Under the pieces are notes generated by a model, which searched no databases, was not told the origin of the DNA, and saw only the letters and a list, made by a program, of their open reading frames with translations. Below, in pieces: positions 3,521 to 25,647 of a stretch of DNA of 32,000 nt (positions are counted from its first letter, which is position 1; each line of letters opens with the position of its first letter). Origin of the DNA: Clostridia bacterium (lineage in GTDB: Bacteria; Bacillota; Clostridia; Oscillospirales; Acutalibacteraceae); NCBI GenBank assembly GCA_017409845.1, contig JAFQRY010000023.1, positions 4,006 to 36,005 of the forward strand, read 5' to 3'. The position numbers and the translations under genes are program-made.

Positions 3521-3568
3521 GAAATCGGATATTATGCGTAATAACGCACAATGCGTGAGGTGGCAGGT

Positions 3569-11405: not shown

Positions 11406-12656
11406 TTAAAACGATTTGATAAGTTCAACCGTTCCTCTTATCCATTTTATCGCTCCGTTCAGACGGTAGCCTTTGAAACCTGATTCAACGAGAATTTCAT
11501 TGACTTCTTCGTCCGTAATATCAAGATTTATGAGCTTTGTGAAATCGACACCCTCTTGGGCAATGTCGCAAATGTAATCATAATAAGTGCCTGAGTATCC
11601 GAAATTTGTTGCATACATTTCGATGTTCTCAACAGCATTCTCAACGGTTTCTTCTGTATCTTCATAGAAAAGGCTGCGTCCGTTATCGTAAAGCGGATAG
11701 AAGCTTTCACCTTCGGATGTCACTTTGACCGCCATGTTTGAGAGATGTCTGTCATCCTGCCTTGTTATGAAATCAAGCAGAATCATACGGATAAAATCAT
11801 CCTTATATTGAGGTCTGACAGCAAGCAGGTTTTCATATTCGTTATCGGAACGAGCACCGTCAAAAAGTCTGCGGAAGTGTACGATATATTCATTTGAGAA
11901 ATCATAAAGAAATTCCGAAAAAATTGTGTTTTTATCGTGGAGATAAACGGGACAGCAAGTCACACCGAGCTTCTCTGCGAGTTTATAAACAGCGATTTCA
12001 GATTCAACATCGGTCACAAGAGGACTGATTCGCTGCTTATAAATGCCGTATTTACCGTCCATAACACCGTATCGTTTGATGTTGTAGCCTTCAGGAGTGT
12101 CGACGCTGTCGCCGACAAGGTCGATTTTCTGCAGAAAGACAGATTCAAAAACCTCTGTCATTATCTCGTCGATAGTTTCATCCACGTTGTGAGCAATCCA
12201 GAGCAAATCCTTGGGATGAATGCCTCGTGTAACCTTGGCAATCCTCAAAACATCGTATGCAGAAAGTCCGCATCTGAACAAGATTTTCTCAATATCACGT
12301 CTGTCGCGGTTTACAACTCGCTCAGAAAGAAAGCCGACAAACTGCTCGTGAGTCCAGTTGTTCTGACCGTGAGTGTATAGTTTTACAACATCGTTGTATT
12401 CGGGACTGATGAAATGAACGTTATAGGCAGTGTCGATAAGACCAATAATATCGTTACCCCATTTAAGATAAAACTCTGACTGACCGACGGGATTTTTCAT
12501 TCTTCCGTCAGTCGGTTTTTTTGCGTCAACGGGGATTCTGTAGGTCTTACCCACAAGCACGGCACCCTCGATTTTACCTTCTTTACAAAGGGTGCGGACA
12601 CGTCTGTCGCTGATATTCCATTTTTCTGCAGCTTTGGCAGTAGTCATAAAGTCCAT
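11406..12656 (-). CDS. HipA-family kinase-like protein with a fused N-terminal HTH (HipH/YjjJ-like architecture)
   Basis: GGAGG RBS. N-terminal HTH AAEKWNISDRRVRTLCKEGKIEGAV. The C-terminal region has the HipA_C catalytic-loop-like ITRQDDRHLSNMAV, followed by YPLYDNGRSL (compare the D-x-H-x-x-N and the (A/P)-x-YD motifs of HipA). Confidence 0.65.
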   Translation of the reverse strand: MDFMTTAKAAEKWNISDRRVRTLCKEGKIEGAVLVGKTYRIPVDAKKPTDGRMKNPVGQSEFYLKWGNDIIGLIDTAYNVHFISPEYNDVVKLYTHGQNNWTHEQFVGFLSERVVNRDRRDIEKILFRCGLSAYDVLRIAKVTRGIHPKDLLWIAHNVDETIDEIMTEVFESVFLQKIDLVGDSVDTPEGYNIKRYGVMDGKYGIYKQRISPLVTDVESEIAVYKLAEKLGVTCCPVYLHDKNTIFSEFLYDFSNEYIVHFRRLFDGARSDNEYENLLAVRPQYKDDFIRMILLDFITRQDDRHLSNMAVKVTSEGESFYPLYDNGRSLFYEDTEETVENAVENIEMYATNFGYSGTYYDYICDIAQEGVDFTKLINLDITDEEVNEILVESGFKGYRLNGAIKWIRGTVELIKSF

Positions 12657-14065: not shown

Positions 14066-14326
14066 TCATCTGAATGTATCGTGTGCAAAATTTGCACCGA
14101 GACGAAAACCGGAAACGAAAGCATCGGTGAGGATTCGGCTTGTGAATTCAATGTATTTGTCCGTGTATTTCAGAAACAACGCTTTTTCATCACCTGTCAG
14201 CTTATCTGAAATCTGCTTTTCAAGCTCGGTCAAGTCATTCAGTTTCTTCTTCAATTCCGCACCGAATTCAGGGCTGTAAGCCTGTGCATCAATGTTTCCG
14301 TAATATAAATCTTCAATAAAACTCAT
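14066..14326 (-). CDS. small (86 aa) ICE/transposon-associated hypothetical protein; intact paralogue of the pseudogene at 2635..2903
   Basis: MSFIEDLYYGNIDAQ...FVSGFRLGANFAHDTF aligns along its length with the two frames of 2635-2903. The start was chosen at the internal ATG (14326) by homology to the paralogue start. Confidence 0.7.
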   Translation of the reverse strand: MSFIEDLYYGNIDAQAYSPEFGAELKKKLNDLTELEKQISDKLTGDEKALFLKYTDKYIEFTSRILTDAFVSGFRLGANFAHDTFR

Positions 14327-14449
14327 AAAATCTCCGTTCCGATAATTATTGTTTCTTCTGTAGAATATTATATCGGATTTCATGGCTCACGTCACGTTTC
14401 AAAGCGCACAATCTTTAACGCGAATTCAGCATTATGGCCTCTGTAGCGC

Positions 14450-14485: not shown

Positions 14486-15505
14486 TTAACCCAAAATCGG
14501 TCTGACTAAGTTTCTGAATATAATGTAGACTGTCATAATCGGAGCCTTGATTATATTCAGAATGTTGAATACAGGCTTGATTTCGCTGTTGTCTGTTTCG
14601 GGATTATAATGCGAAGAATGAGCCATCAGCCACGAAATCATTCCTTCAGGATACGAAAGAACAACCTCGTTTCCGTTTCCGTCAACAGTTGCCATATGAG
14701 GATAAGCTCCGTTATCCGTGGTGAACATATCTGCCGTTACAGCTTCCCATGAATAATGCTCTGTCGGAGCTCGTGAACCGTCAGGAAGGCAAACCTTGCT
14801 CAAAGTTGAAAATCTGCATTCCTGCAAAACGTTTGACGTTGAGCAGATATTCTCCCAGTTGTTAACCGTTCCGCTGTAGCTGACAAGGTGGTCTTTTTTG
14901 CCTGCAACCATCCAAACGGGAACGTCTGCAAACTTTTCAGCATCCTGCTCAGAAACTGATATATAAGGACAAACAGGAAAGATTGCGGCAAACATATCAG
15001 GATAATTGATTGCCATTTTATACGACATCATACCGCCGAGAGAAAATCCACCCATATAGATCTTAGTTGCGTCAATGTGCTCACGGTTCTTTTCGATGAA
15101 ATCGTCAATAGCCGCTTTTAGGGGTGCGATCATATCATCGTCCCAAGATAGTCCGATGTGTTCCGGTGACCTTACAGCCATAATATAAAATCCGTTTTCG
15201 GAACGGGACTGATACTCATCCGATGACCAGTTTACGATATCGTTTGATTTTATCTGGAAACCGTCATACTGTCCGTGAGACTGACCGTGTGCCCAGATAA
15301 CAAGCGGATGCTTTGAGCCTTCGCTTGTTTCAGGTGCATAATATCTGTAATCAACAGAATAAAGACCTGTTTTAGGTTCTTTTCCGTATTCAAACTGCTC
15401 TCTGAGTGCCTCTTTGGATTCGCTGATTGAAACAGCACTCACTGTTGTTGCAAACGATGAAACCATCATTATTGATGCCAGTAATAATGCGATAATTTTT
15501 TTCAT
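14486..15505 (-). CDS. secreted alpha/beta-hydrolase (esterase/lipase-like) with a C-terminal hydrophobic tail
   Basis: Signal peptide MKKIIALLLASIMMVSSFATTVSA. Nucleophile elbow G-F-S-L-G-G (GxSxG). Only 27 nt separate it from the hsdR stop, with no terminator between. Confidence 0.8.
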   Translation of the reverse strand: MKKIIALLLASIMMVSSFATTVSAVSISESKEALREQFEYGKEPKTGLYSVDYRYYAPETSEGSKHPLVIWAHGQSHGQYDGFQIKSNDIVNWSSDEYQSRSENGFYIMAVRSPEHIGLSWDDDMIAPLKAAIDDFIEKNREHIDATKIYMGGFSLGGMMSYKMAINYPDMFAAIFPVCPYISVSEQDAEKFADVPVWMVAGKKDHLVSYSGTVNNWENICSTSNVLQECRFSTLSKVCLPDGSRAPTEHYSWEAVTADMFTTDNGAYPHMATVDGNGNEVVLSYPEGMISWLMAHSSHYNPETDNSEIKPVFNILNIIKAPIMTVYIIFRNLVRPILG

Positions 15506-15532: not shown

Positions 15533-18500
15533 TTAAGCCGCTGCATTCGCATTTATTTGGTCAATAATTCTTTTTATGCCAAGCCATACGGAAACATCAG
15601 TGAAAATATCAACAATGCTGCCTTGGTCGGAGAACGGTGTTTCTTTAAGCACAGAAAGATCTTTCATCATACCGTTGCGAACGATATACTCAACAATCTG
15701 ATTGACGAAATAAATCTGTCTGCTGTCAAGACTTGAACTGTTGAGATATTCAGCAAAAGCTTCTTTTGCGGCATTCATATCAAGTCCGACTATACCTCTG
15801 ACAAATTCGCCGAGAGGAACAGAGCCATAGTTTGCTTCGTAATCCTCTTTTGAACCTACTTCGCTCCAGAGGATTTCTTCGAGAGCCTTCACGTCGTCTG
15901 CATTGAGGGGAACATTGCTCTTCAGCTTCGCAATAACCTCGTTATCCTGATGCTGACGGATATAAAACTCTGCCTTTGCTTTGTAATCCTGCAAATCGTC
16001 ATTCTCAAGCTCGGATTCGTTCCAATCTATTGATATGATTTCATCATCAAATGTTGTTGTGTAGGTCGGGTGTGAAACAATAATATATTTAATCAAATCA
16101 CGCAGGTTTTCTCTGATATTTTCAAACTCATTGATGCCTGCGGTTTCAACGTAATCCGTATGCAGAATCTTATTTATCAGATCGTGCTGTGACATGATTT
16201 CGGGAATATTTGCTGTATTGGCAAGTGCATTAACCTTTTTAACAAGATCATTTCTTGCTTTGGAATACTTTTTGCCAACAAGATATGCGAGCTCGATTCC
16301 GTAGATAAGAGCATCGAATCGCAAAGCCTTCGCATCGTCTTCGTCGGGAATAACAAGCGGTGCGATTTCTTCTTTTATTTCGAGAGTATTCTCATATGTA
16401 AGCACATTGTAGTTATCGGGATTTGAGTAGAAATCAACATAACGGAGATGCTGTTTAACCGAAAAACTCTCTCTGTTAAGCTCCCTGACTTTGCGGACCA
16501 TATCTTCAACAAGCAGTTTTCTGAATGCGATAAGCTCGTTTGTCTGGTAATCCATATCCTGCAATTTATAGGCAATTTGTGCTTTGAGGTTGAATATTGC
16601 ACTCTGCAATGCAACGGCACTTGTTGTCTTGCCTTTGCCGCCCATTCTGAAGAATTCGAAGTTTCCGCAGAAATCGAAGATATAGAATATCTTTTTATCT
16701 TCGCCGTCGATGAGACTCGGGCAAAGACGGGTGCCTCTGCCGACCATCTGCCAGAACTTCGCTTTACTCATAACCTTCTTGAAGAAAACGAGATTCAGCA
16801 CTTCGGGCACGTCAATACCCGTATCAAGCATATCAACGGAAATTGCAATCTGTGGCAGTTTTTTTGGGTCGCTGAAATCATCAATTGCACTCTGTGCATA
16901 GTTGGTGTAATTATCAATCACCATTGCGTAGCCGTTGAGGTGAGGATATTCCTTGTTGAATATTTCAAGGATTTTTTCGGCGTGCTGATGGCTTTTTGCA
17001 AAAATGATTGACTTGCCGATTTTATTGCCGTAATCAATTTTCAGTCCGTGAGTCATAAGAACGTTGAGAACTTCACGGATTGTATCTTCGTTGAACACCC
17101 ATTCATTGAGTGCTGATGAATTGATTTTATCAGGCAATTCGCCGTTTTCATTTTCAAACGTGTTTTCGTATTCCTCTTTGTCTTCATCGGAAAGCTCGTC
17201 ATAAACGATGCCTTCTTCGATGAATTTGAGCTTTGTTTCAACGGACATAAAATCAACCAGATATCCGTCGGCAACAGCCTGTGCAAGCTCATAGGCATAG
17301 GTGGGAATACCGCTTTGCAGATTGAAAATTTCATATGTATTCTTTTCAATTTCGTCTTTCGGTGTAGCGGTAAGACCCACAAGAGGAGCATCGAAATAGT
17401 TGAAAATATCTTTGTATTTATTATAAACTGAACGGTGTGCTTCGTCGCAGATGATAAGGTCAAAATGTCCGCAGGTGAAAAGCTTGCCTTCATCGTCTTT
17501 AATATTATCAATGCAGTTGAACATCGTCTGATATGTTGAGAAAACGCAATGAGCATTGTAGTTTTCTTTATCGGTGCAAAGATTCGTGACCGAGAAATTC
17601 GGAAGAAGATTCACAAACGCACGCTTTGCCTGTGTGACAAGCGAAGTTCTGTCCGCAAGGAAAAGAACGTTCTTGACCCAGCCGTGATTGAGAAGCACTT
17701 TTGTGAGGGCAATAACCGTTCTCGTCTTACCCGAACCCGTAGCCATAACGAGCAGAGCCTTGCGGCGATTTTTGCCGTCAAAGCTGTCGCATACAGCACG
17801 GATTGCGCCTTCCTGATAATATCTGCCTGCGATTGCAGGGTCAACGGTGATATTCTTAAGGCTTGTCCTCATTGAACGCAGATTAAACATCTTTTCAAGG
17901 TCACGCTTTGAATAGATAGCGGCAACCTTTCTTTCGGGATACTGACCGTCAACGATTCTTGTATCAAAGCCGTTTGTGAGGAAGATTGCAGGGCGTCTGC
18001 CGTATTTCTTTTCGATTATATCGGCATAGAGTTTTGCCTGCTGTCTGCCGACGGCAACATCCTTGCAGGTGCGTTTTGCCTCAATAACAGCAAGGGGTTT
18101 GCCGTCATCGCCGTAAAGCACGTAATCGGCATAGCCTACGCCTGCGTTGTTGGGCATACCTTCAAGCTCAACCTCATTGAGCCAGTTTTTGCCTTCAATC
18201 CAGCCTGCATCAACGAGCATTGCATCAATATATATCTTGCGTGTCTGATACTCTGTGAGATCAAGAGGCTTTGGAACATAATTCTGCTGCTGTTCCTCAC
18301 GGCGGGCGGTGAGCTGTTCTTTGAGAGCTTTGTTTTCGGCAAGAAGCTGTTCAAAATTGATTTCAACCGCATTATCAATGAGAGTTTCGGTGTGTTTCTG
18401 AATAAGAGAAGCATCGAAGGTTCTTTCTTCATATTCGGCACCGTAGCAGCAGGCAACGAAATCCATAAAGATAAAAAGGTTTTCAAGGCAAAGCTCCGCC

Positions 18501-18817
18501 TGCCCGGCAGAAATCTTTTTGCCCTGATGGGCGGCGTTGTTGCCAAGCTTTCTGATAAGCTCCATCCTGCGCCATACGTCGTCGCTGACGATATCACGGA
18601 ACTCATCGGTATTCATTAAATTGACGAGGCTGTCCTGCCACGGGAGAACAAGCTCCTTATCGACGGAATACATCCATTTGACTGCAAACTCCATGGCACG
18701 GCGGCAGTTGATAACGGCAGCCGCCGCATCGATATGTAAAATCTTTTCCGCCGAAACCGCAACAGACGAAAAACTGTCAAACTGCGGATCTTGCGTAAGA
18801 AAATCAAAGTTGGTCAT
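15533..18817 (-). CDS. hsdR: type I restriction enzyme R subunit (HsdR) with an N-terminal DUF4145/HEPN-like module and an EcoEI-type C-terminal domain
   Basis: AGGTGA RBS. Nuclease/helicase motifs include MATGSGKT (Walker A) and the DEAH box (ICDEAHRS). N-terminal ...IRKLGNNAAHQ... module. 1094 aa. Confidence 0.95.
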   Translation of the reverse strand: MTNFDFLTQDPQFDSFSSVAVSAEKILHIDAAAAVINCRRAMEFAVKWMYSVDKELVLPWQDSLVNLMNTDEFRDIVSDDVWRRMELIRKLGNNAAHQGKKISAGQAELCLENLFIFMDFVACCYGAEYEERTFDASLIQKHTETLIDNAVEINFEQLLAENKALKEQLTARREEQQQNYVPKPLDLTEYQTRKIYIDAMLVDAGWIEGKNWLNEVELEGMPNNAGVGYADYVLYGDDGKPLAVIEAKRTCKDVAVGRQQAKLYADIIEKKYGRRPAIFLTNGFDTRIVDGQYPERKVAAIYSKRDLEKMFNLRSMRTSLKNITVDPAIAGRYYQEGAIRAVCDSFDGKNRRKALLVMATGSGKTRTVIALTKVLLNHGWVKNVLFLADRTSLVTQAKRAFVNLLPNFSVTNLCTDKENYNAHCVFSTYQTMFNCIDNIKDDEGKLFTCGHFDLIICDEAHRSVYNKYKDIFNYFDAPLVGLTATPKDEIEKNTYEIFNLQSGIPTYAYELAQAVADGYLVDFMSVETKLKFIEEGIVYDELSDEDKEEYENTFENENGELPDKINSSALNEWVFNEDTIREVLNVLMTHGLKIDYGNKIGKSIIFAKSHQHAEKILEIFNKEYPHLNGYAMVIDNYTNYAQSAIDDFSDPKKLPQIAISVDMLDTGIDVPEVLNLVFFKKVMSKAKFWQMVGRGTRLCPSLIDGEDKKIFYIFDFCGNFEFFRMGGKGKTTSAVALQSAIFNLKAQIAYKLQDMDYQTNELIAFRKLLVEDMVRKVRELNRESFSVKQHLRYVDFYSNPDNYNVLTYENTLEIKEEIAPLVIPDEDDAKALRFDALIYGIELAYLVGKKYSKARNDLVKKVNALANTANIPEIMSQHDLINKILHTDYVETAGINEFENIRENLRDLIKYIIVSHPTYTTTFDDEIISIDWNESELENDDLQDYKAKAEFYIRQHQDNEVIAKLKSNVPLNADDVKALEEILWSEVGSKEDYEANYGSVPLGEFVRGIVGLDMNAAKEAFAEYLNSSSLDSRQIYFVNQIVEYIVRNGMMKDLSVLKETPFSDQGSIVDIFTDVSVWLGIKRIIDQINANAAA

Positions 18818-18843
18818 AGTTTCACCTGCTTATTTATAAACAA

Positions 18844-19578
18844 TTAGAAAATTGTCTTTATTATTCTTTCTGTTCCCGAAATCAATTCTTCGACTTCCTC
18901 TTTTGTTGGTTCTCTATCTTTGTTGTGATCACACAGATTTCTTAAGTCGCCGAGTCTTTGGATTCTTCTCCACTCTATTGTATCATAAACATTGTCTTTA
19001 AGAACTTCGTTATAGTCTGCTATTGTGGGGCTTTTCTTTTTTGTCGTTATATGATGGTTTTGGCATACAATTGAAAAGTGTTTTTCGATCAATACTCCGC
19101 AAACAGCACCTGCTGCACGAAAAAATCCTCTTTTAAGCAAATGTTTTGCCGAGTCAATTTCGGAGTCAAAAATATCTGCTTGTAAAAGGGTTTGAATATT
19201 GTATATTTTACTATCAAATGTATCTAAACATCCACATAGAATTTTATGCTGGCTATATATACAAGACAAAGCGTTAGGGGGGCCATAGGTTCTCCTACTG
19301 TTTCCGATTCCTCTCAAAGCATCCGAAACGGTATAGCTGGAAACATCCAACACTTTTCTCCTGTCATTTTTATAGAATAAAACAAAATCATTTAATCTTT
19401 CTGGTAACAGTGTTTTAACAACTGCGATAGCTTTTGAATACCAAACTTCATAGTTTAAGTAGAAATAACCATAGTCTGAACACTCACCATTTTTATCAGA
19501 TTCAATTGCTTTACATAATTTATACCCTTCGTCTGTCAATTCTTTTAATTCTTTTTTCATGTCTTCATACTTGTTCAT
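18844..19578 (-). CDS. hypothetical protein with a C-terminal HEPN-like domain (R-N-x3-H motif), embedded between hsdS and hsdR
   Basis: ATG 19578 is preceded by GAGGTGA, which overlaps the end of hsdS. The C-terminus reads ...RRIQRLGDLRNLCDHNKDREPTKEEVEELISGTERIIKTIF, with Rx4H at nt 18925-18942. The stop lies 26 nt before the hsdR start. Confidence 0.6.
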   Translation of the reverse strand: MNKYEDMKKELKELTDEGYKLCKAIESDKNGECSDYGYFYLNYEVWYSKAIAVVKTLLPERLNDFVLFYKNDRRKVLDVSSYTVSDALRGIGNSRRTYGPPNALSCIYSQHKILCGCLDTFDSKIYNIQTLLQADIFDSEIDSAKHLLKRGFFRAAGAVCGVLIEKHFSIVCQNHHITTKKKSPTIADYNEVLKDNVYDTIEWRRIQRLGDLRNLCDHNKDREPTKEEVEELISGTERIIKTIF

Positions 19579-19588
19579 ATTTATCACC

Positions 19589-20689
19589 TCATCCGAAATA
19601 TTGTTGCATTAAGCTGTCAAACAGGGTTTGTGATTCGTCAAGAGCTTTCTGCACAGCAAATTTTGATTTATCGACTTGTTCAACAAAGGCTGCAAATTGG
19701 TTTTGAAGGTCGATTGGCGGGATAGGCATATCTATTTTCAACAAATCTGCTTTTGTTAAACTTGGTATTGTAACAGCTTTATTTAATATCTCAAAATCAA
19801 AAAGAATGCAGTATAAATACAAATAGTCAACTAACAACACATCTGGTTTTGGTTCTAAGCCGAAAGCGGTATCGACATTCCAATATTTTTCTCGCATTAA
19901 AATAGGCTTATTAATGTTTCCTTTTCTTCCTATTATAACAGAATTCTCTTTTGTAATATAATCATCTGCATATCCCATTACTCCACCACTACCACAAATA
20001 GGATACTGTCCGTTGGGATTTTCAACATTCTTTTGATTTCTACCGTTTTTTACAGACAAAACATCTGCCCAAGTATAAGTTTCCCAAGATTGAGTGTTTG
20101 TGATAACGTCGCCAAACATCTCGACAAATCGGGCTTTAACGAGTTCATCAAGTTTGGCAAGTTGTTGTTTTCTCATTTCAATCAAGGTGTCTATTTTTTC
20201 TAAAACACCTACAATCTTGAGTTGCTCATTAAGTGGAACAGAGGGAAAAGATAGCTCCTTCAATGCTGAAACTGTAAAACTTGCTTGATTAACCGATTTT
20301 TTTGTTATATTGGGAATCTGTCTTAAAAATGACTGTGACGAAAAGTAATAAAATGCGTATTTGCTTATAACACAATCTGTATTCGGCCTCAACAAAAGAA
20401 GATTCATTCCATGAATAACTTCTTCCCTATCATTTTTTTGATAAAGAGCTGTTTTAGCAAGATGTTTTTCGCTGTTTATATGCGACATCAAAATATCTCC
20501 GTCTTGCAAAACATAATCACGATATTTCGATAAATCATTTATGCCTGCATAGCCCATTTTGTTACGGTCAACAGTTCGATTCGATATTGTTTCTATTCTT
20601 GTTATGGGATAACCTGAATCATCTAATCCCTGTTTGATATTCGCACCATTTCTTATAAGTGCAAAAAAGTCACCTAATCTCGCCATCAT
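19589..20689 (-). CDS. hsdS: type I R-M specificity subunit (HsdS), two target-recognition domains
   Basis: Bipartite architecture with a conserved central helix (LNEQLKIVGVLEKIDTLIEMRKQQLAKLDELVKARF) and a C-terminal helix (LQNQFAAFVEQVDKSKFAVQKALDESQTLFDSLMQQYF). Its ATG overlaps the upstream stop (ATGA). Confidence 0.9.
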   Translation of the reverse strand: MMARLGDFFALIRNGANIKQGLDDSGYPITRIETISNRTVDRNKMGYAGINDLSKYRDYVLQDGDILMSHINSEKHLAKTALYQKNDREEVIHGMNLLLLRPNTDCVISKYAFYYFSSQSFLRQIPNITKKSVNQASFTVSALKELSFPSVPLNEQLKIVGVLEKIDTLIEMRKQQLAKLDELVKARFVEMFGDVITNTQSWETYTWADVLSVKNGRNQKNVENPNGQYPICGSGGVMGYADDYITKENSVIIGRKGNINKPILMREKYWNVDTAFGLEPKPDVLLVDYLYLYCILFDFEILNKAVTIPSLTKADLLKIDMPIPPIDLQNQFAAFVEQVDKSKFAVQKALDESQTLFDSLMQQYFG

Positions 20690-21147
20690 CCTACCTCTTT
20701 AAACAATGCTATCAGTGCAACGATTAATGCAAACATTGACATAGTGTTCGAAAAAACTGTTGCAACATAATTTTTATCTTGTTCTCCATCCAAATCCTTA
20801 GCGGCCAAAAAAGTAAAAGCTGCCAATAAAAGAAGAAAAAATGCCCCTATTATGCTTATAGCTATCTCAATTAATGGCTTGTATTCTGCAGAATTAAATT
20901 CAAAAGTGAGTTTTATTCCTACAGCAAAAAGCCCTAAAGATGTCAGCAAGCAAAGAATAGAAAAACCATAAAGCAGACAAGTCGCAATGAACTTCATCCA
21001 TTCTCTCGAACTGCTGTATTCAGCATTTTCATCATATTGTGTTTTTTTGTTTGCATTAACAATAGCATGAGCAAGCTTGTCATAATCTATTTCAATATTT
21101 ACAGAATCAATATTATTAACAACAGTATTTCGCTTTTTCTTTGCCAT
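20686..21147 (-). CDS. 153-aa predicted integral membrane protein (3-4 TM segments), no family recognised, embedded between hsdM and hsdS
   Basis: Its start overlaps the hsdM stop (TAATG at 21149-21145) and its stop overlaps the hsdS start (ATGA at 20689-20686). Hydrophobic segments: FIATCLLYGFSILCLLTSLGLFAVGI, LIEIAISIIGAFFLLLLAAFTFLAA, MSMFALIVALIALF. Confidence 0.7.
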   Translation of the reverse strand: MAKKKRNTVVNNIDSVNIEIDYDKLAHAIVNANKKTQYDENAEYSSSREWMKFIATCLLYGFSILCLLTSLGLFAVGIKLTFEFNSAEYKPLIEIAISIIGAFFLLLLAAFTFLAAKDLDGEQDKNYVATVFSNTMSMFALIVALIALFKEVG

Positions 21148-22643
21148 TAAAGCATTTCCTCCAGCTCTTTAAGTCCATTGGTGATTTCGTCTTCAAGTGC
21201 AAAAAGTTCCGCCATAATCTCGCTTGTGGGCGGATATTCAACGGCAACGTATTCCGTTTTCTTGTATTTGTTGATTGAAAGGTCATAGTCATTATCAATA
21301 ATTTCCTGCTTGGGCACAAAGAAGCTCTGCTGAGTGCGTTCTCTTTCCGCTTCGCCGTCAGGGTTTCTGAATCGGGCAATAATATCGGGGATATCGTTTT
21401 CGGCAATCTCCGAGCGCTTATCGTCAAGGCTGAAGCCGTCGGCTTTCATATCGTAAAACCATACCTTGTCCGTGCCGCCGTGCTCCGTTTTGGTGAATAT
21501 CATTATTGCCGTTGATACACCCGCATAGGGCTTGAATACGCCCGAAGGCATCGAAACAATCGCTTCAAGGCGGTTGTTTTCTATTATCTCCTTGCGGATT
21601 GCCTTGTGTGCAGTCGATGAGCCGAAAAGTACGCCGTCGGGTACGATACAGGCGCATCTGCCGCCTATCTTAAGCATACGCAGGAACAATGCAAGGAACA
21701 AAAGCTCCGTTTTCTTCGTTTTGCAAACCTTGAGCAAATCAGCCGATACAGTATCATAATCAAGGCTGCCCTTGAAAGGCGGATTGGCAAGGATAAGCGA
21801 ATATTTGCCCTTATCCGCATTCTGGTCGGAAAGGCTGTCACGGTATTCGATATAGGGATTGTCTATGCCGTGGGTCATCATATTCATCGCACCGATACGA
21901 AGCATCGTTCTGTCCATATCGTAGCCGAAAAACATATGATTCATATAGTGGTCTTTTGCAATGCGGTCAAAGAAGATTTCTTCTCTGCGATGCTCTTTGA
22001 GATAATCTCCTGCCGCAACAAGGAAGCCCGACGTACCGCAGGCAGGGTCGCAGATAACCTCGTCTGCCTTGGGGTCCATCATTTCAACCATCATTTTAAT
22101 GATGTGTCGGGGTGTTCTGAACTGTCCGTTAAGACCCGACTGTGCAATCTTTGAAAGAAGATATTCGTATGTATCGCCCTTGGTGTCGCTTCCTTCGGCA
22201 ACAGCCATAAGGTCATAAATCTCGTCAAGTGCAGTAACTACCTTGTCCAGCAGAAGGGGAGTAGGCAACTTGAATATTGCATCGCCCATGTATTTTGAAT
22301 ATGCGCTGTTTTTATCCGAATGAAGATTCTTGATAAACGGGAACACCATTTCCTGCATAACGGAATACATTCTTTCTGCAGGGAAATCGTGGAATACCGA
22401 CCATTTAAGCTGATTGCCGTCTACCTTGCGGTCTCCGATTTCAACTTCACCCGAAAAAATGCTTTCAAAAGGCAAGCCGAGCATTGCACTCTCCTTGGCG
22501 TTGCGGTTATCAGCATCGTCAAGGTCACGGATAAACATAAGGTAGGTTATCTGCTCGATAACATCGAGGGGATTAACAAGTCCGCCTGCCGCAAAAATAT
22601 CCCAAAGGGAATCAATTTTATTTTTAAGTTCGCCTGTAATCAT
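21147..22643 (-). CDS. hsdM: type I R-M N6-adenine DNA methyltransferase subunit (HsdM)
   Basis: N-terminal HsdM_N-like ELKNKIDSLWDIF. AdoMet motif ICDPACGTSGF. Catalytic NPPF (LANPPFKG). The start was placed at ATG 22643 (GGGAGAAAG RBS), 2 nt after the fic stop; the track ORF begins at an upstream TTG. Confidence 0.95.
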   Translation of the reverse strand: MITGELKNKIDSLWDIFAAGGLVNPLDVIEQITYLMFIRDLDDADNRNAKESAMLGLPFESIFSGEVEIGDRKVDGNQLKWSVFHDFPAERMYSVMQEMVFPFIKNLHSDKNSAYSKYMGDAIFKLPTPLLLDKVVTALDEIYDLMAVAEGSDTKGDTYEYLLSKIAQSGLNGQFRTPRHIIKMMVEMMDPKADEVICDPACGTSGFLVAAGDYLKEHRREEIFFDRIAKDHYMNHMFFGYDMDRTMLRIGAMNMMTHGIDNPYIEYRDSLSDQNADKGKYSLILANPPFKGSLDYDTVSADLLKVCKTKKTELLFLALFLRMLKIGGRCACIVPDGVLFGSSTAHKAIRKEIIENNRLEAIVSMPSGVFKPYAGVSTAIMIFTKTEHGGTDKVWFYDMKADGFSLDDKRSEIAENDIPDIIARFRNPDGEAERERTQQSFFVPKQEIIDNDYDLSINKYKKTEYVAVEYPPTSEIMAELFALEDEITNGLKELEEML

Positions 22644-22645
22644 AA

Positions 22646-23722
22646 TCAATCTTTCTCCCTGTTCCAAGTATATGATGTGTATCTGCCGCCGCCGATTTTG
22701 ATGATATCACCGTTTTTAACCAGTTCGTTAAGCGTGCGCTGAATTGTTACCTGACTGATATCGGGGCATTGCTCGGCAATTTCGGATTTTGTAACCTTGC
22801 CGAGTGTATCTTTGATGATGTTTCTGATACGGTCGGGTTTTGAGCCTGCGGTAAGAAGCTTCACCCTCGATGAGAATTCACGGTAAGCCGCCGCAATAAC
22901 TCCGAGCATATAGCGAACAAACGGACCGTAGTCGTTTTTATTCTCGTGCCAACCAAAAGAACTTGACTGCAAAGCTTCGTAATAAGTCTCTTTTGTCTGC
23001 TCAATAATGCGTTCAATACTGATATATTTACCCACAATATAACCTGCACGGTAAAGAAGCAAAAGAGTGAGCAAACGGCTCATTCTGCCGTTGCCGTCAT
23101 TGTGCGGATGAATGCAGAGATAATCAAGAACAAACATAGGAATAAGAATAAGCGGATCCGCATCGCCTTTTGCGAGTTCAGTATCAAACGCTGTGCAGAG
23201 GTTTTCGATTGACTGCTGTGTTTCCCAAGCAGGAACAGGCTGAAAACGCACAAAACGGTTGCCGCTTTCATCTTCTTCTGCAATAACGTTGTCGCTATTT
23301 TTATAGTTACCACCAATAGATTTACCGCTGAATTTATATAAATCACGGTGAAGCTGAAGAATAAACGAAGGTCTGACGGGAATATAGTCATAGTTTTCGT
23401 GAATGGTTGCAAGCACGTCACGGTAACCGGCAATTTCCTGCTCGCTTCTGTTCTGGGGCAGAGCCTTATTCATAACAATCTTTTTGATTCGCTCATCAGA
23501 GGTATAAATACCTTCAATCTTATTTGATGATTCAGCACTCTGGATTTTTGCTATATCAAGCAAGCTTGTTAAAACATCTGCTTTTGCTTCGATAAACAAA
23601 GCCTGCTCACCTTTGTATTCATGGATTGTTGTCAGCAGCGAAACAATATCGGGTTCCAGCAACAACTTCCAGTTTTTGAAATCGTAATTTCTCATTGAGT
23701 TAAACTCACTTTCTGTATACAT
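22646..23722 (-). CDS. fic: Fic/DOC family protein with an N-terminal inhibitory-helix motif and a C-terminal winged-HTH
   Basis: Fic motif HPHNDGNGRMSR (compare HxFx(D/E)GNGRxxR). Inhibitory motif (S/T)xxxE(G/N) present as SNKIEG. C-terminal SEIAEQCPDISQVTIQRTLNELVKNGDI wHTH. Confidence 0.9.
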   Translation of the reverse strand: MYTESEFNSMRNYDFKNWKLLLEPDIVSLLTTIHEYKGEQALFIEAKADVLTSLLDIAKIQSAESSNKIEGIYTSDERIKKIVMNKALPQNRSEQEIAGYRDVLATIHENYDYIPVRPSFILQLHRDLYKFSGKSIGGNYKNSDNVIAEEDESGNRFVRFQPVPAWETQQSIENLCTAFDTELAKGDADPLILIPMFVLDYLCIHPHNDGNGRMSRLLTLLLLYRAGYIVGKYISIERIIEQTKETYYEALQSSSFGWHENKNDYGPFVRYMLGVIAAAYREFSSRVKLLTAGSKPDRIRNIIKDTLGKVTKSEIAEQCPDISQVTIQRTLNELVKNGDIIKIGGGRYTSYTWNREKD

Positions 23723-23737
23723 AATAATCTAATTTAT

Positions 23738-23766
23738 ATTATAGCCACCAATTAATCAAAAATCAA
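23738..23766 (-). promoter_or_regulatory. possible promoter of the fic-hsd operon (would give a very short leader)
   Basis: On the minus strand: TTGATT (23766-23761), 17-nt spacer, TATAAT (23743-23738). The -10 lies only 15 nt from ATG 23722 and no SD is visible, so this is either leaderless-like expression or a wrong start/promoter. Confidence 0.35.
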
Positions 23767-23827: not shown

Positions 23828-23869
23828 CCCTTCCGGGATGGTTAAAATGACCGTTTCGGAAGGGATTTT
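23828..23869. terminator. hairpin insulating the fic-hsd operon from the xis-int module
   Basis: CCCTTCCG (23828-23835) / CGGAAGGG (23857-23864), flanked by AAAAA upstream and ATTTT downstream (bidirectional appearance). Confidence 0.5.
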
Positions 23870-24172
23870 ATCTTTGAGTTTTTGCTTGATTTTTTAAATT
23901 ATATAATGTAATAAATTTCTTTCAAATATATTGTGCTTTCCAATCTTACATACTTTGTATGATACCGACGAGGCAACAGGAGTTTTATCTGAGAAATCGT
24001 CAAGGGAGATTTCTTGGATGATAAGTAATAACCTTGCCTTTTTATCGAATTGTAAAACCTCCTCTCTACCATAGAAGGATTTAGTTTTTTACAAAAAGGC
24101 GAGTAAAACTGTACTATAGGCAACCGACACAATTTTTTATAAATATTTTTGTATAACGAAAGGATATCAATT

Positions 24173-24376
24173 ATGAATAAAATTCCAAGAATGAGAACAA
24201 TTTCAGCGGCTATCAGGGAAATAAAAGAATCAGACCCAAACAGCTGCTTCACAGAGCACGCTCTTCGCAAAGCGATTTTGACAAAGCACATTCCAACTGT
24301 TATGGCAGGAAAGAAATATCTTGTTGATATGGATGTTGTTTATGCATATCTCGAAAACAACTTTCTGGCAGCATAA
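24173..24376 (+). CDS. xis: excisionase-type small HTH protein (Xis)
   Basis: AAAGGA RBS and ATG at 24173. 67 aa, immediately upstream of the integrase, with the HTH-like segment CFTEHALRKAILTKHIPTVMAGKKYLVD. Confidence 0.7.
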   Translation: MNKIPRMRTISAAIREIKESDPNSCFTEHALRKAILTKHIPTVMAGKKYLVDMDVVYAYLENNFLAA

Positions 24377-24426
24377 AACAAAACATACCATATAAAAACT
24401 CTTGAATACGAAAGGAAAATGAAAAT

Positions 24427-25647
24427 ATGAATAAGTCAAATGTTAATCTTCCCGATTTTAAAATTCCCAATGTTGATGTTCGCGGCGATGCTTACCGTAT
24501 CAGAGTTTCTGACGGCTACGATTCAAATGGCAAACAGAAAATGAGATACAAGACATGGCACCCCGAACCCGGAATGACCGAAAAGCAAATTAAAAATGAG
24601 CTTCTTTGACAGCGTGTTCTTTTTATGGAACAGGTCAAGAAGGGTATGGTTGTCAACAGAAAAATACGCTTTGAAGAGGCGTTCGATGAATGGATTGCTT
24701 TTGCAGGAGAAATGAATATTATTACTCATGCCTCTGCTAAAAGATATAAAACCTGCAGACCGCGTCTTGTTGAAGAGTTAGGGCATTACTATTTGTCTGA
24801 CCTCAGAAAAAAGGATATACAGGCATTTATCAAGAAGATAGGCACCGGCGACAAGAAGAATAAGGGTGCTTCTGAGAAATCTCAAAAAAACTATAAAACA
24901 GTTATATCCAACATTTATAAGTATGCCGTTGACAATGAATATGTTTTTGATAATCCCTGCAAAGATATTAAAATTGTCAAAAAAGAGACCAAACCCAGAC
25001 AGATATACTCGGTAGAAGAAGTTCAGACAATCCTCAATCTGATGGCAGACGAGCCCCTGAAATATTTTTTATTTCACATTTTGGCTTTTTTCTGTGGGTT
25101 CAGACGTGGAGAATTGCTCGGCATTGAATGGGGTGACATTTCGTTTGAAGAAAGAAAAATAAAAATCAGAAGAGCTTCTCTTTACGCAAACGATATCGGT
25201 ACATATACATCTACCCCCAAGACGGTCGGTTCAAGAAGAACGGTTGTTGTTTCGGGCGACGTTATTGATTTGCTGAAACGGTACAAAGCCGAACAGGATG
25301 AATACAAGAAGATGCTCGGCGATGCGTGGATTGACAATGACCGACTTTTCACTCAATGGAACGGTGCTCCGATGGGCACAAGCACTCCGCTTAATTGGTA
25401 CAGAGAGTTCTGCAAGAAGAACAATATAAGATATCTTTGCACTCACTGCTGCAGACATTTCAACATCTCGCTGATGATAAAAAATCACGTTGACGTAGTT
25501 TCAGTTTCAGCGGCGGCAGGTCATAAGGATATTACAACAACTCTTAATATCTATGCCGAAGAATTTGAAGAGGCAAACGCAGCAAGCGTAGAAACAGTTT
25601 CAAGCTGTATTTCAATTCCTTCCGTAACCAAAACAACAGAGGAATAA
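24427..25647 (+). pseudogene. int: tyrosine site-specific integrase interrupted by an in-frame TGA (24607-24609)
   Basis: The ORFs 24427-24609 (arm-type DNA-binding domain, VRGDAYRIRVSDGYDSNGKQKMRYKTW) and 24625-25647 (SAM-like plus catalytic domain, with R...H-x-x-R as HCCRH and the nucleophile Y of NIYAEE as candidate motifs) are in the same frame. They are separated only by TGA: ...KNELL*QRVLFMEQVKKG. Confidence 0.8.

What the first reader, a model, noticed from the sequence alone, without database searches (positions are those of the whole stretch)
15533..23766. Expanded type I R-M operon: fic-hsdM-(TM ORF)-hsdS-(HEPN ORF)-hsdR, all translationally coupled
**Seen.** Six minus-strand genes are packed with almost no gaps.
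- The fic stop (22648-22646) lies 2 nt before the hsdM ATG (22643).
- The hsdM stop and the membrane-ORF start overlap (TAATG, 21149-21145).
- The membrane-ORF stop and the hsdS start overlap (ATGA, 20689-20686).
- The RBS of the HEPN-motif ORF lies inside the last codons of hsdS.
- Only 26 nt separate that ORF from the hsdR ATG.
- The secreted esterase gene follows hsdR after 27 nt with no terminator.

**Established.** Canonical type I systems need only hsdR, hsdM and hsdS.

**Inference.** The three extra genes are co-expressed with the R-M complex, stoichiometrically tied to it, and probably functionally tied too. I take this as a candidate composite defence system with guard/back-up effectors rather than a plain R-M locus.
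Basis: partly seen in the sequence, partly recalled or inferred. Interest (0 to 1): 0.8.

Follow-up and report, generated by a model that had tools for sequence, protein, structure and literature searches.

The report
Type I restriction operon with embedded defence genes
This is a real type I restriction-modification operon on a mobile element that also carries three extra genes (a Fic toxin, a small membrane protein and a swappable HEPN RNase cassette); this layout is already documented, but two of the extra gene families are uncharacterised.

Summary

**What it is.** An EcoAI/EcoEI-like type I R-M operon on an integrative element from a gut or rumen Clostridia bacterium. The gene order is fic, hsdM, TM gene, hsdS, HEPN gene, hsdR.

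**The three extra genes differ in how tightly they are tied to R-M:**
- **Fic.** SoFic-like, with intact catalytic and inhibitory motifs. It leads hsdM in every close relative sampled.
- **TM protein (153 aa).** 795 representatives at 50% identity, with no Pfam or PADLOC model. It almost always abuts hsdS. Only 2 of 43 other loci lack any hsd context.
- **HEPN protein (244 aa).** Invariant RNLCDH motif and a confident HEPN fold. Only 14 of 80 species-level loci are in R-M operons. A 94–95% identical sister element carries a RelA/SpoT cassette in exactly its place.

**The hsdS–hsdR slot.** Its borders are conserved. The hsdS stop overlaps a Shine-Dalgarno sequence that serves whichever cassette is docked there. 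Other occupants include AbiH, SieB and PADLOC candidates PDC-S31, S33 and S34.

**Verdict on the interpretation.** "Composite defence locus" is supported. Obligate functional coupling is plausible only for the TM protein. The concept is already published (PrrC/EcoprrI; Anantharaman 2013; Payne 2024). I rate it a new member of a known kind, of moderate interest.

The parts
23738..23766 (-). Promoter-like site (TTGATT, 17 nt, TATAAT) upstream of fic; likely operon promoter
   Evidence: 10 of 12 matches. It lies in the region that is 95% conserved with sister element L127. A 17-bp stem terminator at 23828-23864 insulates it from upstream.
22646..23722 (-). fic: class II Fic AMP-transferase with a C-terminal wHTH-like region, SoFic-like. 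The true start is probably ATG 23695.
   Evidence: Pfam Fic 3e-12. PADLOC SoFic 1.9e-36 over nearly the full length, plus PDC-S04 hits. Catalytic motif HPHNDGNGRMSR at residue 205 and inhibitory motif SNKIEG at residue 66. Homologues are 349-352 aa.
21147..22643 (-). hsdM, the type I methyltransferase subunit
   Evidence: N6_Mtase 6.6e-67 and HsdM_N. PADLOC MTase_I 7e-182. DPACGTSGF and NPPF motifs are visible in the translation.
20686..21147 (-). 153-aa membrane protein: basic N-terminus, an amphipathic helix and three TM helices. It overlaps the hsdM stop (TAATG) and the hsdS start (ATGA).
   Evidence: No significant Pfam, PADLOC, NCBIfam or PHROG match.
19589..20689 (-). hsdS, the specificity subunit with two target-recognition domains. 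TRD2 (about 20110-19706) differs from the sister element.
   Evidence: Methylase_S 3e-37 in two stretches.
19584..19593 (-). GGATGAGGTG: a Shine-Dalgarno straddling the hsdS stop codon. It is a conserved docking signal for the first cassette gene.
   Evidence: It is conserved in 7 of 9 aligned sister junctions, where the cassette start lies 7-13 nt after the stop.
18829..19584 (-). Exchangeable cassette holding the 244-aa HEPN gene (ORF 19578-18844)
   Evidence: This is the only non-homologous block between hsdS and hsdR against sister L127, which has 1692 nt there encoding a 196-aa protein and RelA_SpoT/PDC-S33. RNLCDH motif at residues 213-218. AF2 pLDDT is 87.9 and the fold matches HEPN structures.
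15533..18817 (-). hsdR: N-terminal DUF4145 (a HEPN-clan domain, motif IRKLGNNAAH), then the HSDR_N nuclease, an SF2 helicase and EcoEI_R_C
   Evidence: PADLOC REase_I 3.6e-164. NCBIfam EcoAI-type match of 243 bits, below the cutoff. D...EAK nuclease motif.
14486..15505 (-). Secreted alpha/beta-hydrolase (esterase), 27 nt after hsdR. It belongs to the mobile-element backbone and is not part of the R-M lineage.
   Evidence: signal-peptide-like N-terminus. It is present in sister L127 and absent from all other sister loci.
14066..14383 (-). DUF6809 gene, followed by the first strong terminator (14027-13993)
   Evidence: Pfam DUF6809 4e-18. Terminator. DUF6809 also lies downstream of hsdR in L102, L104 and L127.
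24149..25647 (+). Excisionase-like ORF (24149-24376) and a tyrosine integrase (24427-25647) interrupted by an in-frame TGA at 24607-24609. This is the mobility module of the element that carries the operon.
   Evidence: Pfam Phage_integrase 2e-18. The in-frame stop is and the same split appears in independent assemblies. The integrase is intact (406 aa) in sister L127.

Best explanation
**What it is.** The locus is a functional-looking type I R-M operon of an EcoAI/EcoEI-like lineage that is common in gut and rumen Clostridia. It is carried on an integrative mobile element.

**How it is expressed (inferred).** One promoter upstream of fic probably drives fic, hsdM, the TM gene, hsdS, the HEPN gene and hsdR, and probably reads on into the esterase and DUF6809 genes.

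**How it is built.** The R-M core acts as a scaffold with two insertion slots. One slot lies between hsdM and the TM gene. The other lies between hsdS and hsdR. The hsdS-hsdR slot has conserved borders. The end of hsdS carries a Shine-Dalgarno that overlaps its own stop codon and serves whichever promoterless cassette follows. hsdR always starts ATGACCAACTTTGAT. In this window the slot holds a 244-aa protein made of a novel helical N-domain and a HEPN domain.

**How it most likely works (inferred).** The locus gives layered defence.
- The R-M complex cuts unmethylated incoming DNA.
- The Fic protein is an auto-inhibited AMP-transferase of the SoFic type.
- The HEPN protein probably dimerises into an RNase.
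- Fic and HEPN are self-contained abortive-infection effectors. They share the operon's transcription and mobility and do not need the R-M proteins.
- The TM protein is a lineage-specific accessory of the R-M operon itself. Its conserved cytoplasmic N-terminus and loop probably contact HsdM or HsdS. Whether it is a membrane effector or a tether is unresolved.

**Shown versus inferred.** Shown here: gene identities, motifs, folds, junctions, cassette boundaries and neighbourhood statistics. Inferred: co-transcription, enzymatic activities, anti-phage roles and any protein-protein contact.
For: - **Core identity.**, with the motifs.
- **Junctions and signals.**
- **Cassette nature of the HEPN gene.**
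  - Sister element L127 is 94-95% identical on both sides. It differs only over HsdS TRD2 and over window 19584-18829.
  - Docking junctions are conserved across 9 loci.
- **The slots hold defence genes.** AbiH, SieB, RhuM-Fic, a small HEPN and Schlafen AlbA_2. Also PDC-S33, S34, S05 and S31.
- **The HEPN protein.**
  - Invariant Rx4H motif.
  - pLDDT 87.9.
  - Foldseek probability 0.97-1.0 to the HEPN structures 1o3u, 2hsb, 5yep and 1wol.
  - PF05168 is matched by 10 of 20 family members.
  - The family is self-contained. No conserved partner ORF exists apart from HsdS, and 66 of 80 loci lie outside R-M.
- **Fic.** Every sampled context of close relatives has Fic directly upstream of hsdM.
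- **TM protein.**
  - 28 of 38 informative loci have hsdS directly downstream.
  - 29 of 33 have hsdM or a remnant of it upstream.
  - Only L093 and L097 lack any hsd context.
- **Modularity.** Presence of Fic, TM and HEPN is patchy on the HsdM tree.
- **Published precedent.** Payne et al. 2024 (doi 10.1101/2024.01.29.577857), Anantharaman et al. 2013 (PMC3710099), TgvAB (PMC11411939) and SoFic (PMC12249575).
Against: - No expression, methylation, restriction or phage data exist for this locus.
- Independence of Fic and HEPN from the R-M proteins rests on distribution alone. PrrC shows that an embedded HEPN nuclease can be physically controlled by its R-M host.
- Fic's constant position at the head of the operon in its close clade could mean a regulatory or functional tie, not an independent role.
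- The HEPN match to Pfam PF05168 is below the gathering score for the window protein (19 vs 22 bits).
- The TM protein has no informative structural or sequence relative, so its role is a guess.
- The neighbourhood samples are not unbiased. The 80 HEPN loci are the best 80 of 312. Some TM loci were reached through Fic or HEPN queries.
Confidence: 0.6

Rival explanations
1. PrrC-like guard system. One or more of the extra proteins, most plausibly the TM protein, binds the HsdM/HsdS/HsdR complex and is held inactive. When a phage anti-restriction protein disables the complex, the guard is released and stops or kills the cell, by membrane damage, RNA cleavage or AMPylation.
For: - The TM gene is almost confined to hsd operons and always abuts hsdS, with overlapping stop and start codons.
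- Its conserved parts are the predicted cytoplasmic N-terminus and loop, while the TM helices vary.
- PrrC is likewise almost exclusively R-M-embedded and sits between hsdS and hsdR.
- The HEPN gene occupies the PrrC position.
- HsdS is the only recurrent neighbour of the HEPN family, in two unrelated type I lineages.
Against: - The HEPN protein lacks PrrC's ABC-ATPase regulatory domain.
- 66 of 80 homologue loci have no R-M nearby.
- The HEPN gene is swapped as a cassette between near-identical backbones.
- A specific pairing with HsdR's DUF4145 domain was tested and not supported.
- TM is absent from several closely related operons (L002, L003, L005, L012, L013), so the R-M does not need it.
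- No interaction data exist.
Confidence: 0.2
2. The extra genes serve the R-M system or the mobile element, not phage defence.
- Fic's wHTH would act as a controller of operon expression when the element enters a new host.
- The TM protein would tether the methylase or restriction complex at the membrane, where DNA enters.
- The HEPN protein would be an addiction-type toxin that stabilises the element.
For: - Fic is the first gene, carries a C-terminal wHTH-like region (weak HTH hits at residues 295-355), and leads the operon in every sampled close relative.
- TM is co-translated with hsdS and is lineage-specific.
- The operon sits on an integrative element with Xis and Int, and sister operons sit beside serine recombinases and relaxases.
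Against: - Fic keeps a complete catalytic motif and an inhibitory helix, as in toxin-type SoFic, and matches the SoFic defence model.
- Alternative occupants of the same slots are Abi genes or defence candidates.
- No antitoxin-like partner accompanies the HEPN gene.
- Many sister operons work with no Fic or no TM.
Confidence: 0.15
3. A plain R-M operon with functionless hitch-hikers. The extra ORFs would be neutral insertions into a permissive 'genomic sink' and contribute nothing.
For: - Presence and absence of all three genes is patchy among close relatives.
- Payne et al. list the genomic-sink hypothesis as one explanation for embedding.
Against: - Both unknown families are large and conserved, with invariant motifs.
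- Reading frames are intact.
- Overlapping junctions and the docking Shine-Dalgarno are conserved.
- Catalytic motifs are intact.
- The identical locus is seen in 23 contigs.
Confidence: 0.05

Closest known systems
PrrC / EcoprrI (anticodon nuclease embedded in a type IC R-M operon of E. coli)
   Same: A HEPN-type nuclease gene sits between hsdS and hsdR, is co-oriented with the operon, and is thought to give a second line of defence.
   Different: - PrrC has an N-terminal ABC-ATPase regulatory domain. This 244-aa protein has an unrelated helical N-domain and no NTPase match.
- PrrC is almost always R-M-linked. This family is R-M-linked in 14 of 80 loci.
- The host R-M here is IB-like, not IC.
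Genes embedded in type I R-M systems ('guilt by embedding', Payne et al. 2024; PADLOC PDC candidates)
   Same: - Co-oriented extra genes are nested in hsdMSR.
- The Fic protein hits PDC-S04.
- Sister cassettes hit PDC-S05, S31, S33 and S34.
- The preprint discusses the same back-up or co-regulation rationale.
   Different: - The 244-aa HEPN family and the 153-aa TM family match no PADLOC model.
- I did not find the conserved docking junctions in the sections of the paper I read. These are the Shine-Dalgarno overlapping the hsdS stop and the constant hsdR start.
SoFic (single-gene Fic anti-phage system; Millman et al. 2022; structure in PMC12249575)
   Same: - Class II Fic with a catalytic loop, an N-terminal inhibitory motif and a C-terminal domain.
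- Near full-length match to the PADLOC SoFic model at 1.9e-36.
   Different: - It fails the NCBIfam SoFic equivalog cutoff (50 vs 550 bits).
- No downstream AS1-like small antitoxin gene is present. hsdM follows after 2 nt.
- This clade is fixed at the head of an R-M operon.
RAZR and other single-protein 'sensor domain + HEPN' abortive-infection systems (PMC13017515); HEPN toxins of HEPN-MNT pairs
   Same: - Two-domain layout with a C-terminal HEPN RNase-type domain and an Rx4-6H-type motif.
- Structural matches to the HEPN toxins 5yep, 7bxo and 7ae8.
   Different: - There is no zinc-finger N-domain and no PADLOC hit.
- There is no adjacent MNT nucleotidyltransferase.
- The N-domain has no detectable relative.
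TgvAB (GmrSD-like pair embedded in the Vibrio cholerae VPI-2 type I R-M operon)
   Same: An independently acting defence module is nested in hsdMSR and gains from the host operon.
   Different: The protein families are unrelated. TgvAB is a DNA-targeting type IV restriction system.

Membership tests
Type I restriction-modification system (EcoAI/EcoEI-like, family IB) | HsdM with an HsdM_N domain and an N6-adenine methyltransferase domain carrying AdoMet and NPPF motifs | tested here: met
   PF12161 3e-11 and PF02384 6.6e-67. PADLOC MTase_I 7e-182. DPACGTSGF and NPPF are visible in the translation.
Type I restriction-modification system (EcoAI/EcoEI-like, family IB) | HsdS with two target-recognition domains | tested here: met
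   Methylase_S 3e-37 in two stretches. Many Specificity_I models match.
Type I restriction-modification system (EcoAI/EcoEI-like, family IB) | HsdR with a PD-(D/E)xK nuclease, an SF2 helicase motor and the EcoEI_R_C tail | tested here: met
   HSDR_N, ResIII, Helicase_C and EcoEI_R_C. D...EAK motif. REase_I 3.6e-164.
Type I restriction-modification system (EcoAI/EcoEI-like, family IB) | Score above the NCBIfam equivalog cutoff for the EcoAI/FtnUII R subunit | tested here: not met
   243 bits against a cutoff of 550, and PRK11448 at 301 against 729. I therefore call it 'IB-like', not a member by that threshold.
Type I restriction-modification system (EcoAI/EcoEI-like, family IB) | Methylation and restriction activity at a bipartite target | not testable with these tools
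   This needs methylome or restriction assays.
PrrC/RloC anticodon nucleases | N-terminal ABC-ATPase domain fused to a C-terminal HEPN nuclease | tested here: not met
   No NTPase or ABC match in Pfam, NCBIfam or PADLOC. The N-domain is an unmatched helical bundle.
PrrC/RloC anticodon nucleases | Gene embedded between hsdS and hsdR of a type I operon | tested here: met
PrrC/RloC anticodon nucleases | Near-exclusive linkage to R-M loci (PrrC) | tested here: not met
   14 of 80 loci are R-M-linked.
HEPN superfamily | Conserved Rx4-6H motif | tested here: met
   RNLCDH at residues 213-218, invariant in 20 of 20 aligned members.
HEPN superfamily | Four-helix HEPN fold | tested here: met
   AF2 pLDDT 87.9. 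Foldseek probability 0.97-1.0 to 1o3u, 2hsb, 5yep_C and 1wol, with target TM-score up to 0.72. E-values are only 0.02-0.3.
HEPN superfamily | Pfam PF05168 above the gathering score | tested here: inconclusive
   The window protein scores 19.0 bits against a cutoff of 22. 10 of 20 family members match at E<=0.01, the best at 6e-6.
HEPN-MNT toxin-antitoxin pair | Adjacent minimal nucleotidyltransferase antitoxin gene | tested here: not met
   The neighbours here are hsdS and hsdR. No conserved partner ORF exists in 80 loci, and no NTP_transf family appears among the frequent neighbour families.
SoFic defence system | Fic catalytic motif HxFx(D/E)GNGRxxR | tested here: met
   HPHNDGNGRMSR at residue 205, with His in place of Phe at position 3.
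SoFic defence system | Class II N-terminal inhibitory motif (S/T)xxxE(G/N) | tested here: met
   SNKIEG at residue 66.
SoFic defence system | Full-length match to curated SoFic models | tested here: inconclusive
   PADLOC SoFic 1.9e-36 over residues 52-351. The NCBIfam SoFic equivalog gives 50 bits against a cutoff of 550.
SoFic defence system | Anti-phage activity through AMPylation | not testable with these tools
   This needs plaque assays and biochemistry.
PADLOC phage-defence candidates (PDC) from embedding | Match to a PDC model | tested here: not met
   The HEPN ORF and the TM ORF have 0 families at E<=0.01, whereas Fic hits PDC-S04.
RAZR (zinc-finger + DUF4145 HEPN) | N-terminal Cys4 zinc-ribbon domain | tested here: not met
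   The N-terminal 120 residues are helical with no Cys4 cluster. No PADLOC hit.

The most novel reading that the evidence does not exclude
**TM protein as a fourth R-M component.** The 153-aa three-helix membrane protein may be a dedicated, previously undescribed fourth component of a widespread gut-Clostridia type I R-M lineage. It is translationally coupled to hsdS and contacts the methylase or specificity core through its conserved cytoplasmic N-terminus and loop. It would act in one of two ways:
- as a PrrC-style guard that damages the membrane when the R-M complex is inhibited, or
- as a tether that places the enzyme at the site of DNA entry.

**A general docking site.** Linked to this, the hsdS-hsdR junction may work as a general docking site for promoterless defence genes. 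Its stop-overlapping Shine-Dalgarno and constant hsdR start would serve any cassette. The 244-aa HEPN family would then be a new stand-alone abortive-infection RNase.
Probability: 0.25. Interest if true: 0.65.

Novelty: new member of a known kind. Interest (0 to 1): 0.4.

Why it matters
The general idea is already established: type I R-M operons host extra defence genes that may back up or guard the R-M system. This locus therefore does not open a new category.

Its value is concrete in three ways.

1. **Two new candidate defence families.** Both are large, uncharacterised and absent from PADLOC and from specific Pfam models.
   - The 244-aa HEPN family has more than 1,200 clusters and 312 species-level loci across many phyla.
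   - The TM family has 795 representatives at 50% identity and is almost confined to hsd operons.
2. **A natural experiment.** Two near-identical elements differ only by the cassette between hsdS and hsdR. This shows how such genes are exchanged. It also shows that the host operon supplies their translation signal.
3. **A tractable test case.** The TM protein could show whether R-M-embedded genes physically depend on their host system.

The architecture is very common in human-gut and rumen Clostridia, so it bears on phage-host dynamics and on the genetic tractability of these bacteria.

Tried and rejected
1. **HEPN ORF pairing with HsdR's own DUF4145 domain.**
   - The lead was that plasmid relatives of the ORF's C-domain are annotated DUF4145.
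   - Rejected as a specific model. BLASTP between the two domains gives E=2.7.
   - Bacteroidota R-M operons that embed this HEPN have HsdR proteins without DUF4145.
2. **A small antitoxin-like partner for the HEPN family.**
   - Many loci showed a 71-96 aa upstream ORF in crude gene calls.
   - Clustering of all adjacent small ORFs found none conserved. Only HsdS and one Schlafen-helicase pair recur.
3. **Fic neutralising HEPN by AMPylation, by analogy with MNT-HEPN.** Not supported by co-occurrence. L002, L005, L007 and L013 have the HEPN gene without Fic.
4. **Function of the TM protein from fold or sequence.**
   - Foldseek against the PDB gave only non-significant helical-bundle hits. The best was E=0.2, with all TM-scores below 0.6.
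   - The exhaustive profile search found only small stand-alone proteins and no fusions.
   - There were no plasmid, PHROG, PADLOC or Pfam matches.
5. **The esterase as part of the defence system.** It is conserved only with the nearest sister element's backbone and is absent from all other sister operons. It is probably co-transcribed but is not an R-M-lineage gene.
6. **att sites for the element.** No convincing direct repeats were found.
7. **PDB sequence search with the HEPN family profile.** Nothing significant was found.

Full report
**1.

I read each junction on the minus strand.
- The fic stop is at 22648-22646, and the hsdM ATG follows 2 nt later at 22643.
- TAATG at 21149-21145 joins the hsdM stop to the start of a 153-aa ORF.
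- ATGA at 20689-20686 joins that ORF's stop to the hsdS start.
- The hsdS stop (19591-19589) lies inside GGATGAGGTG, and the next ATG is at 19578.
- 26 nt separate that ORF's stop from the hsdR ATG at 18817.
- 27 nt separate the hsdR stop from the esterase ATG at 15505.

A sigma-70-like site (TTGATT, 17 nt, TATAAT) sits at 23766-23738. It lies behind a strong hairpin at 23828-23864. The first strong minus-strand terminator is at 14027-13993, beyond the esterase and a DUF6809 gene.

One correction concerns the fic start. Close Fic homologues and public gene calls for this very locus are 349 aa, so fic probably starts at ATG 23695.

**2. The core is a type I R-M system of EcoAI/EcoEI type**

- HsdM has HsdM_N and N6_Mtase domains.
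- HsdS has two Methylase_S stretches.
- HsdR has HSDR_N, ResIII, Helicase_C and EcoEI_R_C, plus an N-terminal DUF4145 domain.
- PADLOC models for type I subunits match at 7e-182 (M) and 3.6e-164 (R).
- NCBIfam's EcoAI-type R model matches at 243 bits but below its equivalog cutoff of 550. I therefore call the system IB-like.
- AdoMet and NPPF motifs in HsdM, and the D...EAK nuclease motif in HsdR, are intact.
- DUF4145 is a HEPN-clan domain known to be fused to restriction-endonuclease and SF2-helicase modules (PMC3710099). In RAZR its catalytic Arg and His are 8 residues apart (PMC13017515). This HsdR keeps that pattern (IRKLGNNAAH).

**3. The three extra genes**

*Fic (358 or 349 aa).*
- It has the catalytic loop HPHNDGNGRMSR and the class II inhibitory motif SNKIEG.
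- It has weak wHTH matches at its C-terminus.
- It gives a near full-length match to PADLOC's SoFic model (1.9e-36) and hits to the embedded-candidate family PDC-S04.
- It fails NCBIfam's SoFic equivalog cutoff.

*TM ORF (153 aa).*
- It has no significant match in Pfam, NCBIfam, PADLOC, PHROGs or plasmids.
- Its family has 322 clusters at 90% identity and 795 representatives at 50% identity. The 150 best representatives are 66-235 aa and none carries an added domain.
- The alignment shows a conserved MAKKK...NNI..N.EIDYDKLAEAIVKA N-terminus. The hydrophobic helices are variable. There is a conserved AKEIDKEKDRNY loop and a conserved C-terminus.
- AlphaFold gives a disordered basic tip, a helix at 22-40 and three long helices (pLDDT 78.5). 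This agrees with three hydropathy peaks.
- Fold search gave nothing significant.

*HEPN ORF (244 aa).*
- Its family has more than 1,200 clusters.
- RNLCDH (Rx4H) and QADxFDSE motifs are invariant, as are four cysteines.
- The model is confident (pLDDT 87.9).
- Its top structural matches are HEPN proteins, including HEPN toxins of HEPN-MNT pairs (probability 0.97-1.0, target TM-score up to 0.72). Each alignment spans only about 115-130 residues, roughly one domain. The Pfam HEPN hit and the Rx4H motif place that domain in the C-terminal half.
- The N-terminal 120 or so residues are a helical domain with no relative.
- Pfam HEPN is matched by 10 of 20 family members but falls just below threshold for the window protein.

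**4.

*HEPN family.*
- 312 species-level genome loci encode a relative. They span Clostridia, Bacteroidota, Proteobacteria, Cyanobacteria, candidate phyla and a haloarchaeon.
- In the best 80 loci, tblastn and an iterative profile search found hsd genes next to the HEPN gene in only 14.
- In those 14 the order is always hsdS, then HEPN, then 0-2 further genes, then hsdR.
- They come from two unrelated type I lineages: Clostridial IB-like with DUF4145-HsdR, and Bacteroidota with HsdR lacking DUF4145.
- Neighbours in the other 66 loci are heterogeneous. They include Schlafen-type helicases, AbiEii-like AAA ATPases, integrases, transposases and housekeeping genes.
- No conserved small partner ORF exists. 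HsdS is the only recurrent neighbour.
- The family is therefore a self-contained gene, with strong but non-exclusive enrichment right after hsdS.

*TM family.*
- Among 43 loci other than the window, 28 of 38 with enough downstream sequence have hsdS immediately after the TM gene, usually with a 1-4 nt overlap.
- 29 of 33 with enough upstream sequence have hsdM, or an hsdM remnant, before it.
- Only L093 and L097 lack any hsd context. The other loci without hsdS are decayed loci that keep an HsdM C-terminal fragment.
- Independent public gene calls with Pfam labels show the same layout in unrelated chromosomal surroundings.

*Fic clade.*
- More than 8,000 homologues exist.
- Every context sampled for relatives at 75-86% identity has Fic directly upstream of hsdM in the same operon plan. 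The flanks carry serine recombinases and relaxases. One of these relatives is indexed in 655 blocks of the assembly collection.

**5. The operon is a scaffold with two cassette slots**

Sister operons carry other genes in the same places.
- Between hsdM and the TM gene: RhuM (PDC-S05), RhuM-Fic, a small roughly 160-aa HEPN, Schlafen AlbA_2, or an unknown 197-aa protein.
- Between hsdS and hsdR: AbiH, a SieB-family protein, HAD (PDC-S34), DUF2971 (PDC-S31), RelA/SpoT (PDC-S33), and several unknowns.

On an HsdM tree the presence of Fic, TM and HEPN is patchy.

The clearest evidence is sister element L127. By blastn it is 95.4% identical to window 24054-20111. That stretch covers the promoter, fic, hsdM, the TM gene and the first half of hsdS. 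It is 94.3% identical to window 18828-11703, which runs from 11 nt before the hsdR ATG through hsdR, the esterase, DUF6809 and two more genes. Homology is lost only in two places:
- over HsdS TRD2 (20110-19706), and
- over 19584-18829, where L127 has 1,692 nt encoding a 196-aa membrane protein and a RelA/SpoT protein.

The HEPN gene is thus a 756-nt cassette bounded by the hsdS stop and the hsdR ribosome-binding site.

Aligning both junctions in nine loci shows a conserved hsdS end (...ATGCAACAATATTTCGGA TGA GGTG). The first cassette gene starts 7-13 nt after the stop, and hsdR always starts ATGACCAACTTTGAT. The host operon supplies translation initiation for whatever cassette is inserted.

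**6. Context**

- The identical locus occurs in 23 contigs read from public assemblies (the four shown come from four different assemblies), and the protein is named only 'hypothetical protein [Clostridia bacterium]'.
- Upstream of the operon lie an excisionase-like ORF and a tyrosine integrase with an in-frame TGA. The stop is reproduced in independent assemblies. The integrase is intact in L127.
- The esterase and DUF6809 genes are shared with L127, and DUF6809 also with L102 and L104. The esterase occurs in no other sister operon. It belongs to this element's backbone and not to the R-M lineage.

**7. Mechanism: best estimate and limits**

The R-M proteins almost certainly act as in other type I systems, although this is inferred from intact domains and motifs. 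The most economical reading of the distribution data has two parts.
- Fic and the HEPN protein are self-contained abortive-infection-type effectors. Fic is an auto-inhibited AMP-transferase. The HEPN protein is a dimer-activated RNase with an N-terminal sensor or regulatory domain. Both share the operon's promoter, translation signals and mobility.
- The TM protein is a real accessory of this R-M lineage.

A PrrC-like guard mechanism cannot be excluded. It is most plausible for the TM protein, whose R-M linkage resembles PrrC's. It is less plausible for the HEPN cassette.

I tested and dropped three more specific ideas: pairing of the HEPN ORF with HsdR's DUF4145 domain, a small antitoxin partner, and a Fic-HEPN neutralisation pair.

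**8. Comparison with what is known, and novelty**

- HEPN genes embedded in R-M operons, PrrC-type loci accompanied by RhuM or Fic/Doc toxins, and DUF4145-REase-helicase fusions were described in 2013 (PMC3710099).
- Payne et al. (2024) showed that type I R-M, BREX, DISARM and Hma systems commonly contain embedded genes. 96.7% of these are co-oriented. The authors discussed back-up and co-regulation roles and released 145 candidate families in PADLOC.
- TgvAB is an experimentally verified example in Vibrio cholerae.
- SoFic is an established defence gene.

New here are the two unmodelled families, the near-obligate hsdS linkage of the TM protein, and the defined cassette borders with a host-supplied Shine-Dalgarno.

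I rate it a new member of a known kind, with interest 0.4.

Noticed in passing
window 24427-25647 (+): The tyrosine integrase is split by an in-frame TGA at 24607-24609 into a 60-aa arm-binding N-domain and a 340-aa core. The same split appears in independent assemblies (L128-L130). The sister element L127 has an intact 406-aa integrase. The element may therefore be immobilised here.
   Followed up: partly
window ~409-25687; L127 1-356: L127 bases 1-356 match window 764-409 at 93.5%, about 25 kb from the integrase end. This suggests the mobile element spans roughly 409-25687. The 24.4-kb sister contig may be a circular or differently joined form. No att-type direct repeats were found.
   Followed up: partly
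window 5308-8970 (+), 3551-4813 (+), 10431-11102 (+), 11406-12656 (-): The same element carries a 1220-aa protein with an aerolysin-like stretch, a LuxR/HTH regulator, a DUF4368 fragment (the tail of a serine recombinase) and an HTH plus weak HipA_C-like protein.
   Followed up: no
window 18844-19578 (-); alignment A1: Four cysteines (C117, C160, C172, C216) are invariant across the 244-aa HEPN family, and one sits inside the RNLCDH motif. They may form a metal-binding or redox site. This was not examined in the model.
   Followed up: no
L116 12256-15548: In one sister operon the DUF4145 domain is a separate 214-aa gene, directly in front of an 875-aa HsdR that lacks it. This is a natural split of the fusion seen in the window.
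   Followed up: no
L001 7894-8856: A 320-aa variant of the TM gene has a roughly 190-residue soluble N-terminal extension with no family match, fused to the same TM module and the same C-terminal ...ALIVALIALFKGVG. It also overlaps the hsdS start.
   Followed up: partly
L006 8130-10729; L009 8127-10729; L010: Outside R-M loci, two Clostridia genomes have a 618-626 aa Schlafen group-3 helicase immediately upstream of the HEPN homologue. DUF6809 lies just downstream in L006 and L010. This may be a separate two-gene defence module on related elements.
   Followed up: partly
L092 10603-13905: A second, inverted hsdS copy and a 332-aa minus-strand gene follow hsdS. This looks like an invertible hsdS (phase-variable specificity) arrangement.
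   Followed up: no
L098, L099, L107-L112 (several labelled human gut metagenome): Distant TM-family genes are preceded only by an HsdM C-terminal fragment of about 85-115 aa and are not followed by hsdS. These appear to be decayed R-M loci that retain the TM gene.
   Followed up: partly
window 9464-9519 and 9604-9659: Two copies of a 56-nt sequence (79% identical) lie 140 nt apart in a low-GC intergenic stretch.
   Followed up: no
window 19000-21000: GC content falls to 0.33-0.35 over the TM gene, hsdS and the HEPN cassette, against 0.42-0.46 in the flanks. This fits exchange of TRD2 and the cassette. For the TM gene it also fits codon bias towards hydrophobic residues.
   Followed up: partly
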